Of a stretch of 8,852 nucleotides of DNA, positions 3,001 to 6,000 are shown piece after piece. Positions within the stretch are counted from its first letter, which is position 1. Each line of letters begins with the position of its first letter. A program made the position numbers. This DNA comes from a virus (lineage: Duplodnaviria; Heunggongvirae; Uroviricota; Caudoviricetes), in IMG/VR virus record IMGVR_UViG_2778261136_000008, positions 1 to 8,852 of that record. The stretch is one strand, 5' to 3'.

Positions 3001-6000
3001 TTGCGCATTGATGCCGAGATACGCTTCCAGTCTTCGCGGTCGTTGTCGATAACTTCATTTTTTGCCCAGCGATGGATGCTGCCGTCAATGTTTCCGGCAT
3101 CCACATCACCAGGCCAGAGAGCGTAGGCCAGTTCGTCATCCAGTGTTTTCCATGTCTGCTTGTATTCGCGATGAATGGCAGCAATGACCGGGCTGATTTT
3201 TCCTGTTGAATTTTCAGTGTGTTGTTGATTGGTTCTGGCGCGGGCGAGATCAACAACAGACGTGTATTTTCCGGTTTCCTTGCGTTCACCTTCGCGACGT
3301 TTTTTCCAGATGCGCATCTCTGCCTGAATTTCGGGCCATTTGGCACCAGGCTTACATTTATGCTTAACCCACCCGATGGCATGCAGCTTAAGTTCCGGAT
3401 ACATGGCGTTAACTTCTGGCATTTTCATCAACGCTTCAACGATATGTCCGTCGAATGTTGCCATGTCTTCCTGCAACAATTCCTGTGCGCTAATAACCAT
3501 ATCAACGGTGATGTTTTCACATGTGTCGAACTTAACCATGACAGCGTTCTGTACTTCAGGGGCCAGCTTGTCAAAAGTGACGTTCATCGGATCTGATTCA
3601 GTCTCAACCGGGACAAAGGAAGCAGACTCCTCATCCCAGCGGTTTTCCTGCATATATTCAGCATCCCAGGAATCGAGGGCAGGGCGGGGTATGCCGGGTT
3701 TATCCTCACAGACAATAAATTTATAAGCGCAGTCCTGAGCTGCAGGGAATTGCTCCAGAAATTGCCAATGAAATTTTGCGCGTGCGCGACGCTCATCACC
3801 GGCTTCAATGGCAGTGGCCACCGCAACAGCGCTATCTTCTTTTATGGCCTGTTCATCAGGAATAGCAGCGCAAATAAAGACCTTACTCATTTTGTTTTAA
3901 CCTCATTACAGATTTCAGGGTGAACGAATCCCTGCCATTGCTGGCATTTTTAATCCGTTGGTATGGTGTTAATATGGCTGGCTGGTTATCCAGCCGGTAT
4001 TTCGTTATTCAGGTTCAGCGATACTTTTTTTAACGGGAGGCATTCACCGGGGATTTTTTGTTCGTCCCTTACCTGAATGCAGGATGACTTACTGTCATAA
4101 ATTCCGGTAATCACATTTTGTGGCTCACCCGTTATAAGAAAAACGGTCATCACCAGTGCAAATGCTGAAGTCACTGCTGTTCTCCGATAATACCAAGTTC
4201 AAGAAGGGCAATTCTGGAAAGTATGGAATTATCATTGAGAAGATAAGGTTCATATTTTCTCATCTTAATGGCATCTTCCGTAAACTCCCGGTTACTGAGC
4301 AGAACGCCAATATCAAAACAACCTTCAGACGTATTAACGTTTGGTAATAACGTTTCCATTATCGCGTCCTCAACAATGAATTTTGTGATGCGGTGCCTGG
4401 TGCCTCCAGGTGACGTTAACCAGTTAACAATTAACGCCGGAATACAGAAGGATGCCCGTTACGCCCCGTAAAAGACCACTTTACGGTTTTAACTGTTCCG
4501 CGTGCGCATAGCCGCATTCACCGCATCACAAAATTCACTTTAAAAAGGGTGGCAGAGCAGTCACGGAGTAGAACTGATGCCACCAAATACTACACATGGG
4601 TATTGTGGCGGGGCTGTCACTTAAGCGTATGGTCAACCTGACGACCCGGTGCATTTTCTGGAGCAATGGAGGAAGCCCCAGCCATACTTACCGCCGCGCC
4701 ATTTCGCGGATTGCCACAACCGGAAGCGCATGATCGAATTACATTTAACGACGACCTGTACAGAGAGACTAACTTCGCCGTGCGCTTTCGTGTTATGCCC
4801 TGACTTTTCAGGGAAATATCCTTTCAGCAAACTGTCAGTGCCGGATTCTTATCCGTGTCCGGCGCACGACCACACGTGACAGCGTGTTGGTCTCCATCAT
4901 TAACCCGGAACCTCTATGGAGGATAATATGCAAGTTGATATTATTAGCCCTGTAATGATCCATATGCTTGCGCACATCAGGCTCTTCTGGCACTAATCAA
5001 CGCCGGAAAAATTGAAAATTCCGCGATGTGCTTTGAAGAGTTGAAACAACTTGTGCGCTTGTATGAATATATTAAAAAACAATCACAAGATACGGCGTAA
5101 TATTTAAAATACTTTCTGTTATATGGGGCTGCTATAATGCTGGCCCATATTTCTAACCCCTCTATAAGAAAAACATATTATTATGGCAATTTCTTCGGTA
5201 GCTCTTCAGAAAGCTGAGTTGTTTTAATTATGGTTTTTAAATAATCATCGCTTTCACATTTGAGTGATTCTATGGCAATCCAGATGTGGGCTTCGGTGCC
5301 TGCATTTGGTTCCAGTTGCTGTAGACGTTTTGCATCTTCCAGTAGTAAGGCGATAACGTGTTTCAGCTTCTCATCATTCGCTTGATTCTTGTTTTCAGGC
5401 GAATTTTGTCCGCCGAATGGCCACTTTTCTTCGTACAGCCCGATAAAGGTTCGACGCACGTTACCGGATATATTGTCGATGGTTTCTTTTTCTACGGTAC
5501 TCAGGTCAAGAGTCGCCAGTTGAGAACGAACTATATTCGCTGCCATTTCCTGGAATGGTACTGGTAAATCTTTAAATTCCATCGTCAACCTCATCAGTCA
5601 GTGTTTCTGGCTAACCAGCGACGCGCGCCAGCTTCAGTTTTAAACGTTTTGCTTCTGGTATACGTCATCGCGGTAAACGTGCCGTCCAGGTTGGAGAATA
5701 CTCCGCATACCAGAGATTCGTTGTTGCCAAGATTGAGCGTATCCATGTTGACCTCATTTACCCTTAACGCCGGGTCGCGGAACTAAAAACCTGCTGCGCT
5801 GTTATACAAAGTGTTCCCGCCGTCATGTTCATACGCCTCGGGCTGGCTACTTAACCCCTGACCACTGCCGGGTAACTCGAAGTATTGCCCTGCGTTCTGT
5901 TGAATGGGGTGGGTTGGTGAAACAAGGATGCACTTTTAAAGTTATTATGTCAACACTTATAAAGTTAGGTTGTGGGCAACAAAAACCGCCTCGAGATGAG

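What the first reader, a model, noticed from the sequence alone, without database searches (positions are those of the whole stretch)
4377..4537. Perfect 19-bp inverted repeat flanking 123 bp, wedged between the DicF terminator and the dicB ribosome-binding site
A 19/19 perfect inverted repeat is not expected by chance in about 9 kb. In the minus-strand transcript it would form a 19-bp duplex starting 4 nt after the DicF U-tract and ending about 5 nt before the dicB Shine-Dalgarno. Two readings are possible. (a) It is an RNA-level processing element: a long perfect duplex is an ideal RNase III substrate, and DicF is known to be excised from the dicB operon transcript by endonucleases, so this could define the DicF 3' end or gate dicB translation. 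(b) It is a DNA-level miniature inverted-repeat element inserted between dicF and dicB. The interior also holds short hairpins (CCTGG-N5-CCAGG; CCGTAAA-N7-TTTACGG followed by TTTT).
Basis: seen in the sequence. Interest (0 to 1): 0.55.

Follow-up and report, generated by a model that had tools for sequence, protein, structure and literature searches.

The report
RNase III stem closing an STnc100-like RNA
The perfect inverted repeat is real: in the dicF-to-dicB transcript it forms the long closing stem of a conserved folded RNA domain related to the prophage small RNA STnc100, and it lies where RNase III is already reported to cut the E. coli K-12 dicBF transcript, so it is a largely known processing site with a previously unremarked identity.

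Summary
Arms 4377-4395 and 4519-4537 are 19/19 complementary, 123 nt apart, against 0.01 matches expected by chance.

It is an RNA element read on the minus (DicF/dicB) strand, not a mobile element. All 80 distinct DicF loci sampled carry it. It has no target-site duplication.

E. coli K-12 has two copies: dicF-dicB in Qin, with two G·U wobbles in the stem, and kilS-kilR in Rac.

The 123 nt are not a loop. Stem plus interior match Rfam STnc100 (RF02076) over the whole model at 36.8 bits, below the gathering score of 47 (E = 1e-6). My covariance model, built mostly from DicF-linked copies, retrieves genuine STnc100 genes.

Covariation supports the fold: 97.5% of cells are paired, and 21 of 42 pairs show changes on both sides (shuffled mean 5.0). 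A covarying pseudoknot is also present.

Two papers citing Faubladier 1990 report that RNase III cuts full-length dicBF RNA to give a 72-nt DicF, 19 nt longer than the terminated 53-nt form. By my count, +19 falls at position 10 of the 19-nt 5' arm.

So reading (a) is essentially right and already known for K-12. Reading (b) is rejected. New here are the STnc100-family identity, the pseudoknot and the second K-12 copy.

The parts
4547..4598 (-). DicF small RNA. Its terminator hairpin plus T-tract spans 4542-4584.
   Evidence: Rfam RF00039, 62 bits, gathering score 48, E 4.7e-12. Coordinates.
4519..4539 (-). P1 5' strand. The 19-nt perfect arm is 4519-4537, extended by G·U and A-U pairs to 4539. 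The inferred RNase III cut giving the 72-nt DicF falls after about 4528.
   Evidence: The +19 position was counted on K-12 and transferred by homology (inference).
4500..4515 (-). H1 hairpin (GCGGCUAUGCGCACGC), preceded by the invariant GGUG-AAU junction.
   Evidence: RNAalifold and pair counts: 6 pairs, 3 with changes on both sides, 98-99% paired.
4489..4495 (-). Junction segment CAGUUAA, the 5' strand of the pseudoknot.
   Evidence: Complementary to the H3 loop. At least 15 different complementary sequence pairs occur across the family.
4439..4488 (-). Hypervariable insert. It contains the hairpin 4466-4486, which on the + strand looks like a weak terminator.
   Evidence: 75% mean identity here, against 94-99.6% for the helices and the H1-junction segment. 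Different sequences and lengths among loci. Terminator-like hit.
4412..4438 (-). H3 hairpin. Its loop UUAACUG (4421-4427) is the 3' strand of the pseudoknot.
   Evidence: 10 pairs, 6 with changes on both sides, 99.4% paired. Pseudoknot evidence.
4396..4410 (-). H4 hairpin CCUGG-AGGCA-CCAGG, flanked by CACC repeats. This is the most conserved part of the whole family.
   Evidence: U-A to G-C compensatory change in 4 sequences. H3+H4 are 99.6% identical among DicF loci. The motif is essentially invariant in 81 family members.
4375..4395 (-). P1 3' strand. The 19-nt arm is 4377-4395, extended to 4375. The inferred partner RNase III cut would leave a dicB mRNA 5' end near 4384.
   Evidence: The cut position is inferred from the 2-nt 3' overhang rule and is not measured.
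4171..4371 (-). dicB Shine-Dalgarno sequence (GAGGA, 4367-4371) and coding sequence (4171-4359).
   Evidence: Pfam DicB PF05358, 3.7e-38. RefSeq annotation of an identical locus.

Best explanation
The two arms pair in RNA polymerase read-through transcripts of the dicBF-type operon (minus strand). They form a 19-21 bp helix, P1. P1 closes a roughly 140-nt folded domain made of H1, a variable insert, H3, H4 and a junction-to-H3-loop pseudoknot. The domain is a diverged member of the STnc100/PasD family of prophage RNAs.

Canonical family members are stand-alone sRNA genes with their own promoter and terminator and a 6-11 bp P1. This DicF/KilS-linked subfamily has neither. It sits 4 nt after the DicF (or KilS) terminator, runs straight into the ribosome-binding site of dicB, kilR or a rha-like gene, and has a P1 about two helical turns long.

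That long P1 is the RNase III substrate. A cut near its middle separates DicF from the downstream RNA, giving the 72-nt DicF reported in K-12. It would also excise the domain with a roughly 9-bp stub of P1 and leave dicB mRNA with a short leader of about 25 nt carrying a 5' monophosphate.

Shown here: the repeat, its conservation, the RNA-level covariation and the family relationship. Taken from the literature: RNase III-dependent formation of a DicF form 19 nt longer than the terminated one. Inferred: that this helix is the cleaved duplex, the exact cut sites, and any effect on dicB or kilR expression.
For: **Repeat and fold**
- The repeat is real and the fold is stable.

**Conservation**
- 4642 of 5426 complete E. 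coli genomes carry the 176-bp element.
- All 80 distinct DicF loci from IMG/VR carry both arms.
- Homology ends exactly at the 3' arm, upstream of dicB, kilR or a rha-like ORF.

**RNA-level selection on the sense strand**
- K-12 Qin has a 17/19 DNA match but 19/19 RNA pairs through two G·U wobbles.
- The sense fold is more stable than the antisense fold in 48 of 51 variants (-61.5 against -51.8 kcal/mol).

**Covariation**
- Alignment A1: 96.4% of cells paired against 34-43% when the partner is slid; 13 pairs with changes on both sides against 3.0 in shuffles (0/500).
- Alignment A3: 97.5% paired; 21 of 42 pairs with changes on both sides against 5.0 in shuffles (0/500).
- The extended helix itself covaries in Klebsiella leader-type copies, e.g. 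GCUUUGCAAUGCGGUG/CGCCGCAUCGCAAAGC.

**Family relationship**
- STnc100 matches the window over the full model at 36.8 bits, E 1e-6. Relatives score 34-46 bits.
- Model R1 retrieves the STnc100 of phage 933W at 89 bits and about 70 further copies. Rfam confirms those checked at 57-208 bits.

**RNase III**
- A 72-nt DicF made by RNase III from full-length dicBF RNA is reported in PMC5069750 and PMC9438474.
- Position +19 from the annotated DicF end is arm position 10 of 19.
- A comparison of an rnc mutant with wild type lists position 1649470 in the dicF-dicB spacer, with 26 reads in the mutant and 0/0 in wild type (PMC5371410 Table S1).
- RNase III accommodates about 22 bp of duplex (PMC6212723).
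Against: - I could not read Faubladier 1990. Assigning the 72-nt 3' end to the middle of this helix rests on subtracting lengths and on the annotated 53-nt coordinates, with an error of a few nucleotides.
- Ragunathan 2023 mentions RNase III only for the 5' end of the 190-nt species.
- The rnc RNA-seq evidence rests on low counts from a noisy list, and could reflect a change in expression rather than cleavage.
- The window copy is below Rfam's curated threshold for STnc100, and the model's terminator part has no counterpart here.
- P7/D6 copies have only a 9-bp P1 and canonical copies 6-11 bp. A long duplex is therefore not needed for the domain itself.
- kilR-type and rha-type copies carry a one-nucleotide bulge in the helix.
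- Within the DicF-linked set, several rare variants break a pair (A·C), so the evidence from that set alone is modest.
- Zero wild-type reads in the spacer argue that the excised domain does not accumulate under those conditions.
Confidence: 0.75

Rival explanations
1. P1 is only a structural clamp. The long helix insulates the STnc100-like domain from the adjacent DicF terminator and from ribosomes on the dicB RBS. The domain acts in cis on stability, Rho loading or translation of dicB/kilR, and RNase III cleavage is not its main role. The 72-nt DicF would then be a minor by-product or would arise elsewhere.
For: - The domain is conserved with short P1 helices in P7/D6 and in canonical members.
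- The junctions and loops are nearly invariant (99.6% in H3+H4), and a pseudoknot covaries. This suggests a specific partner rather than a mere duplex.
- The helix ends 3-5 nt before the Shine-Dalgarno sequence without sequestering it.
Against: - Reported RNase III-dependent 72-nt DicF, whose 3' end I infer to fall inside the 5' arm.
- rnc-dependent loss of spacer coverage.
- The helix is extended to about two turns specifically in copies that lack their own promoter and terminator.
Confidence: 0.17
2. It is a DNA-level miniature inverted-repeat transposable element inserted between dicF and dicB.
For: Perfect terminal inverted repeats flank a short non-coding interior. Related interiors occur in several phage contexts.
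Against: - No target-site duplication (flanks AAAG / TTGT).
- No empty site among 112 DicF instances.
- The number of places in E. coli tracks the dicF-dicB locus: 10,439 against 10,781.
- In P7/D6 the outer arms are absent but the interior is kept.
- Wobble and compensatory changes, and the sense/antisense asymmetry, point to RNA.
Confidence: 0.03
3. The functional strand is the + strand: an antisense RNA, or a terminator for + strand transcription, uses the same palindrome.
For: A terminator-like hairpin reads on the + strand at 4466-4486. A perfect inverted repeat folds on either strand in this window.
Against: - That hairpin lies in the hypervariable insert and is absent from K-12 and most loci.
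- The antisense fold is weaker in 48 of 51 variants, because G·U pairs become A·C.
- Conserved G·U pairs in H1 and H3 exist only on the sense strand.
- No promoter-like site lies in the element.
Confidence: 0.03
4. It is a chance or lineage-specific palindrome with no function.
For: None beyond the fact that perfect arms are only one of several alleles.
Against: Chance expectation is 0.01. The arms are conserved in E. coli, Shigella phages and Klebsiella phages, with covariation.
Confidence: 0.01

Closest known systems
RNase III processing of the E. coli K-12 dicBF operon RNA (Faubladier, Cam and Bouche 1990, as summarised in PMC5069750 and PMC9438474)
   Same: Same locus type and orthologous sequence. 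K-12 Qin has the same arms, with two G·U pairs, between dicF and dicB. A 72-nt DicF made by RNase III from the full-length transcript ends 19 nt past the 53-nt form, which by my count is inside the 5' arm.
   Different: The window is a different prophage allele, with perfect arms and a different variable insert. The accessible papers do not describe the helix or what it encloses. The better-known RNase III site of this operon is a different one, about 137 nt upstream of DicF, which gives the 5' end of the 190-nt species.
STnc100 (Rfam RF02076) / PasD / EcOnc27 prophage small RNAs
   Same: Same helices (P1, H1, H3, H4). Same invariant GGUGAAU and UCACC-GGAGGCACC-GG-CACC motifs. Same variable insert position and same junction-to-H3-loop pairing. 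Prophage location, often near tRNA clusters and 'moron' genes (accessory genes inserted between phage modules).
   Different: The window scores below the Rfam gathering score (36.8 against 47). It has no promoter or terminator of its own. It is embedded in an operon between an sRNA terminator and a protein-coding RBS. Its P1 is 19-21 bp instead of 6-11 bp. Canonical members are Hfq-dependent stand-alone sRNAs of unknown function (PMC8550237; bioRxiv 10.64898/2026.05.13.724894, which mentions neither dicF, dicB nor kilR).
Intercistronic RNase III sites of phage early transcripts (lambda N leader, T7 early mRNA) and rRNA processing stalks
   Same: It works like these: a long helix formed by distant flanks of a polycistronic phage transcript is cut by host RNase III, separating functional RNAs and remodelling the 5' leader of the next cistron (established knowledge, not tested here).
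   Different: No sequence relationship was tested or claimed. Here the helix encloses a conserved pseudoknotted domain rather than a simple loop or an rRNA.
RNase III-matured small RNAs (CJnc190 in Campylobacter, PMC8687705; ManS in Salmonella, PMC11745405)
   Same: Precedent for RNase III generating the ends of a regulatory RNA from a longer precursor (abstracts seen).
   Different: Unrelated sequences and organisms. Whether the excised domain here is a stable, functional RNA is unknown. K-12 wild-type coverage of the spacer was zero in one dataset.

Membership tests
STnc100 (Rfam RF02076) | Covariance-model score at or above the curated gathering score (47 bits) | tested here: not met
   Window 4327-4549(-) scores 36.8 bits, E 1.2e-6, aligned to model positions 1-206. 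K-12 Qin 34.4, Rac-type L001 46.2, P7 43, D6 39.6. Leader-type copies are absent from the gathering-threshold scan, while canonical copies score 57-161 bits.
STnc100 (Rfam RF02076) | Shared architecture: closing helix, H1, H3, H4 and the invariant junction and loop motifs, supported by covariation | tested here: met
   Alignments A1 and A3 include 933W and L064 STnc100. 97.5% of cells paired, 21 of 42 pairs with changes on both sides. Model R1 finds genuine STnc100 copies.
STnc100 (Rfam RF02076) | Stand-alone sRNA gene: single-stranded linker and its own Rho-independent terminator 3' of the domain | tested here: not met
   The terminator part of the model aligns poorly to the start of dicB. 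No terminator lies on the sense strand between 4375 and dicB. Canonical units in L299 show promoter-like AT-rich DNA, then domain, linker and terminator.
STnc100 (Rfam RF02076) | Accumulates as a discrete Hfq-associated RNA | not testable with these tools
   Literature covers canonical members only (PMC8550237, PMC5331693).
E. coli RNase III substrate | About two turns (roughly 20-22 bp) of largely uninterrupted intramolecular duplex | tested here: met
   19 Watson-Crick pairs plus 2 further pairs, 21 bp, in the minimum-free-energy fold. Enzyme footprint of about 22 bp (PMC6212723).
E. coli RNase III substrate | rnc-dependent cleavage mapped within the duplex | tested here: inconclusive
   Literature reports a 72-nt DicF made by RNase III. 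+19 equals arm position 10 by my count. The spacer is listed in an rnc versus wild-type coverage screen with 26 against 0/0 reads. The primary paper is not readable, and there are no data for this window's allele.
E. coli RNase III substrate | Favourable base pairs and no antideterminant pairs in the proximal and distal boxes | not tested
   Scoring needs the exact cut site and the published position-specific table, which was not available as text.
Miniature inverted-repeat transposable element | Target-site duplication flanking the terminal inverted repeats | tested here: not met
   The flanks are AAAG and TTGT.
Miniature inverted-repeat transposable element | Presence/absence polymorphism and copies at unrelated sites | tested here: not met
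   All 80 distinct DicF loci carry it. E. coli place counts match the dicF-dicB locus. Other contexts are homologous phage operon positions.

The most novel reading that the evidence does not exclude
The roughly 140-nt domain enclosed by the repeat may not be a passive spacer or a conventional base-pairing sRNA. It may be a compact, pseudoknotted RNA module with a specific protein, ribosome or small-molecule partner. Lambdoid and P1-like phages would then deploy it in two forms: as stand-alone genes, sometimes in tandem arrays, and as a leader excised by RNase III in front of toxic cell-division inhibitors (dicB, kilR). Under this reading, folding or cleavage of the module sets how much DicB or KilR is made from terminator read-through transcripts in E. 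coli K-12 itself.
Probability: 0.15. Interest if true: 0.7.

Novelty: new variant of a known kind. Interest (0 to 1): 0.4.

Why it matters
DicB, KilR and DicF are prophage-encoded inhibitors of FtsZ and of phage receptors. How much of each is made from one transcript is still unclear.

The RNase III cut after DicF has been known since 1990. The accessible literature, however, treats the dicF-dicB and kilS-kilR spacers as plain untranslated regions.

Recognising that both K-12 spacers, and thousands of prophage copies, encode an STnc100/PasD-like domain closed by an RNase III stalk does three things:
- It links two separately studied sets of prophage RNAs.
- It explains why standard Rfam annotation misses these copies.
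- It gives concrete, cheap experiments in K-12 on a family whose function is unknown.

The covarying pseudoknot also improves the structural model of the whole family.

Tried and rejected
**Scan that led nowhere**
- The genome-contig scan with a degenerate DicF core (TATCAGNTYTACTCNGT) returned almost only chance matches.

**Literature and data I could not reach**
- RNase III site tables of Altuvia 2018 are not held as text.
- Faubladier 1990 and Faubladier and Bouche 1994 are not held.
- Ragunathan 2023 says nothing on a terminator, on read-through or on dicB-specific transcripts.

**Hypotheses tested and rejected**
- An internal promoter for dicB inside the element: none found. The only promoter-like hit is at 4900-4927 on the + strand, outside the element.
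- A mobile element.
- A + strand terminator or antisense role for the 4466-4486 hairpin: it is not conserved.

**Hypotheses considered but not tested**
- DicF pairing with the CACC repeats (a sponge idea). I dropped it because the DicF 5' region differs between the window and K-12. This rests on inspection only.
- A put-like antiterminator or riboswitch reading of the domain. Tandem arrays of promoter-domain-terminator units fit sRNA genes better than attenuators.

**Caveat on a published label**
- The 'Known? Yes' flag for dicF-dicB in Gordon 2017 Table S1 carries no reference in the table. Position 1649470 is about 225 nt from the upstream (190-nt) site and 17 nt from the inferred 72-nt end.
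Full report
**1. The observation**

The window holds one long perfect inverted repeat: 4377-4395 and 4519-4537, 19/19 complementary, 123 nt apart. Allowing three mismatches, the arm sequence occurs only at those two places. Dinucleotide-preserving shuffles give 0.01 matches on average, and none of 200 reaches two.

Rfam DicF lies at 4547-4598 on the minus strand (62 bits). 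The dicB ORF is 4171-4359 on the minus strand (Pfam DicB 3.7e-38). The window as a whole is the early-left arm of a lambdoid prophage, with integrase, an exonuclease, a DUF1482 protein, DicB, and a DicA-like and a YdaS/YdaT-like regulator pair.

On the transcript the arm starts 4 nt after the DicF U-tract and the other arm ends 5 nt before GAGGA. Folded as RNA, the 271-nt read-through segment forms a 21-bp helix from the two arms. The fold is at -95 kcal/mol with z = -4.49.

**2. Distribution, and the test for a mobile element**

The 176-bp element is present in 4642 of 5426 complete E. coli genomes, at a median of two places per genome. That is about the same number of places as the whole dicF-dicB segment (10,439 against 10,781).

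An IMG/VR scan seeded only on the DicF core gave 112 usable instances and 80 distinct sequences. Every one carries both arms. The flanks (AAAG / TTGT) are not a duplication. Nothing therefore supports a miniature transposable element.

Homology stops exactly at the outer end of the 3' arm. Downstream come dicB, kilR, a rha-like ORF, or in one rearranged locus a toxin-antitoxin pair.

E. coli K-12 has two copies.
- Qin, between dicF and dicB. The arms are 17/19 as DNA but 19/19 as RNA, because both differences are G·U wobbles.
- Rac, between the recently named sRNA KilS and kilR. KilS occupies the position of DicF and ends in the same kind of terminator, directly before the 5' arm.

**3. What the 123 nt are**

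Partial database hits pointed to the interior rather than the arms. Phages P7 and D6 (P1-like) carry the interior upstream of terB/tciA and downstream of tRNA genes. Shigella and Stx phages carry the whole element upstream of kil. Klebsiella phages carry a diverged copy.

A permissive Rfam scan then matched window 4327-4549(-) to STnc100 (RF02076) across the whole model. The score is 36.8 bits, E = 1.2e-6, below the gathering score of 47. K-12 Qin (34.4), a Rac-type locus (46.2), P7 (43) and D6 (39.6) behave the same way. The genuine STnc100 lying 75 nt after stxB2 of phage 933W scores 207.7 bits.

I built a 26-sequence alignment (A1) and a covariance model from it (R1). The model finds the element in every DicF locus. 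It also finds 933W STnc100 at 89 bits and about 70 further canonical copies. Rfam confirms those I checked at 57-161 bits, while the leader-type copies stay below its threshold.

**4. Structure**

The proposed structure is P1 (the arms), H1, a variable insert, H3 and H4. It is 96.4% paired on A1, against 34-43% when partners are slid. Thirteen pairs have changes on both sides, against 3.0 in shuffles (0/500).

On the 37-sequence model-guided alignment A3 it is 97.5% paired. Twenty-one of 42 pairs have changes on both sides, against 5.0 (0/500). That alignment is fitted to the model, which favours the structure.

- The inner nine pairs of P1 covary with P7 (GAUGCGGUG/CACCGCAUC becomes AUUGCGGUG/CACCGCAAU) and with 933W (GCAUGGUG/CACCAUGC).
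- The outer extension covaries in the Klebsiella leader-type copies (GCUUUGCAAUGCGGUG/CGCCGCAUCGCAAAGC).
- The sense RNA is more stable than the antisense RNA in 48 of 51 variants. H1 and H3 contain conserved G·U pairs that exist only on the DicF-sense strand.
- Among DicF loci, H3+H4 are 99.6% identical, the arms 94-98%, the variable insert 75% and the dicB coding sequence 86%.

I also found that the junction after H1 is complementary to the H3 loop. In the window this is CAGUUAA (4489-4495) with UUAACUG (4421-4427). The complementarity is maintained by at least 15 different sequence pairs across the family. Matched partners reach 6 bp or more in 66% of 77 distinct combinations, against 19% for mismatched partners. 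A few members have a nested version instead. The Rfam consensus line shows no such pseudoknot.

**5. How it works**

Canonical STnc100 copies are stand-alone genes: AT-rich upstream DNA, domain, about 25 nt of linker, then a terminator. They are sometimes in tandem arrays and have a P1 of 6-11 bp.

The DicF/KilS-linked and Klebsiella leader-type copies have no promoter or terminator of their own. They run into a ribosome-binding site and have a much longer P1.

Two papers citing Faubladier et al. [quoted passage not shown] On the K-12 sequence, 19 nt beyond the annotated DicF end is the tenth base of the 19-nt 5' arm. The arm spans +10 to +28, so an error of a few nucleotides keeps the end inside the arm.

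RNase III accommodates about 22 bp and leaves 2-nt 3' overhangs (PMC6212723). A central double cut would therefore give three products:
- DicF-72;
- a domain of about 143 nt with a 9-bp P1 stub, the same length as P1 in P7/D6;
- a dicB mRNA starting near window 4384, about 25 nt before the AUG.

These positions are inferences.

An rnc versus wild-type RNA-seq screen lists position 1649470, which is 8 nt inside the 5' arm. It has 26 reads in the mutant and none in either wild-type replicate, and is flagged as known. It also lists 1418510, just upstream of kilS (PMC5371410 Table S1). This evidence is weak because the counts are low and the list is noisy. If it is real, it suggests that the spacer RNA is removed, not accumulated, in wild type.

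Whether cleavage raises or lowers DicB or KilR synthesis is unknown.

**6. Comparison with what is known, and novelty**

Its alternative (b) is rejected.

I did not find three things in the accessible literature:
- that the helix closes an STnc100/PasD-family domain (the 2026 preprint on Pas and STnc100 RNAs mentions neither dicF, dicB nor kilR);
- that the same module precedes kilR behind KilS in K-12;
- that the family fold includes a covarying pseudoknot.

I therefore file this as a new variant of a known kind, of moderate interest. It is not a member of RF02076 by the curated threshold and it lacks that family's terminator. It is nevertheless clearly homologous to the family's structured domain.

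**7. Limits**

- The primary 1990 paper could not be read.
- No experimental data exist for this window's allele.
- The function of the STnc100/PasD domain is unknown in the literature.
- The one genome-contig scan was wasted on too degenerate a pattern, so the taxonomic breadth outside phage collections is under-sampled.

Noticed in passing
L248 (NC_000913.3 1417800-1419600): kilS 606-703(-), element 449-606(-), kilR 209-430(-): In the K-12 Rac prophage the sRNA KilS (b4833) occupies the position that DicF has in Qin. It ends in a DicF-like terminator and is followed, 4 nt later, by the same inverted-repeat element (one bulged A, one U·G) and then kilR. KilS therefore looks like a positional paralogue of DicF, and the 'kilR 5' UTR' contains the STnc100-like domain.
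   Followed up: partly
window 4489-4495 with 4421-4427 (minus strand); family-wide in L250-L369: The junction after H1 is complementary to the H3 loop, forming a pseudoknot. The pairing is kept by at least 15 different sequence pairs across STnc100-family copies. A few members (e.g. L275, L281) have a nested version instead. The Rfam consensus structure line shows no such pairing.
   Followed up: partly
L299 4349-5513 and 8357-8555; L256 2265-3380; L263 342-1038; L271 1702-2340: Canonical STnc100 genes occur as tandem arrays of 3-5 units with a period of about 250-280 nt, plus a sixth separate copy in L299. Each unit has its own AT-rich upstream region, linker and one or two terminators. The arrays are often next to phage tRNA clusters. 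An isrI match lies inside the L299 array.
   Followed up: partly
L244 (phage P7) 2486-2633(-); L246 (phage D6) 2486-2638(-): P1-like phages carry the domain with only a 9-bp closing stem, directly upstream of terB/tciA in the ban operon. A boxA-like TGCTCTTA lies immediately 5' of it. A tRNA-Sec-like match just below threshold (46.6 against 47 bits) lies about 100 nt upstream.
   Followed up: no
window 4466-4486 (+ strand): A terminator-like hairpin, CCGTAAAAGACCACTTTACGG followed by TTTTAACTGT, reads on the strand opposite to the operon. It sits in the hypervariable insert and is present in only a few alleles (window, L003, L021, L083, L096).
   Followed up: yes
L249 1994-2159(-), L258 3456-3619(+), L363 4415-4580(-) (Klebsiella phage or prophage contigs): Leader-type copies outside E. 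coli have a 14-16 bp closing helix with a different outer sequence. In L249, the copy whose flanks I read, there is no DicF-like terminator upstream and an RBS plus an uncharacterised ORF (MKDFARVPTGNQ...) directly downstream. All three are below the Rfam threshold.
   Followed up: partly
PMC5371410 Table S1, positions 1649470 and 1418510 (K-12): Both K-12 loci that carry the element appear in the rnc-dependent coverage list. The dicF-dicB entry is flagged 'Known: Yes', although it is about 225 nt from the upstream RNase III site emphasised in the 2023 J Bacteriol paper. It is 17 nt from the inferred 72-nt DicF end.
   Followed up: partly
window 1419-3890 (-): Close relatives of the window annotate an exodeoxyribonuclease VIII (RecE) at this position. 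The 823-aa ORF here carries a C-terminal Rv2179c-like 3'-5' exoribonuclease domain (PF16473, 3.5e-66) and a weak RNase_T match.
   Followed up: no
L101 4393-5364: In one contig the element is not followed by a division-inhibitor gene. About 250 nt of non-coding DNA follow, then two small adjacent ORFs that look, by eye only, like a Phd/YefM-type antitoxin with a RelE/ParE-type toxin. This suggests a rearranged locus.
   Followed up: no
L246 4137-4242(-) and 1329-1446(-): Two weak extra matches of my covariance model in phage D6 (27-30 bits, GC 0.55-0.57). They could be very diverged copies or noise.
   Followed up: no
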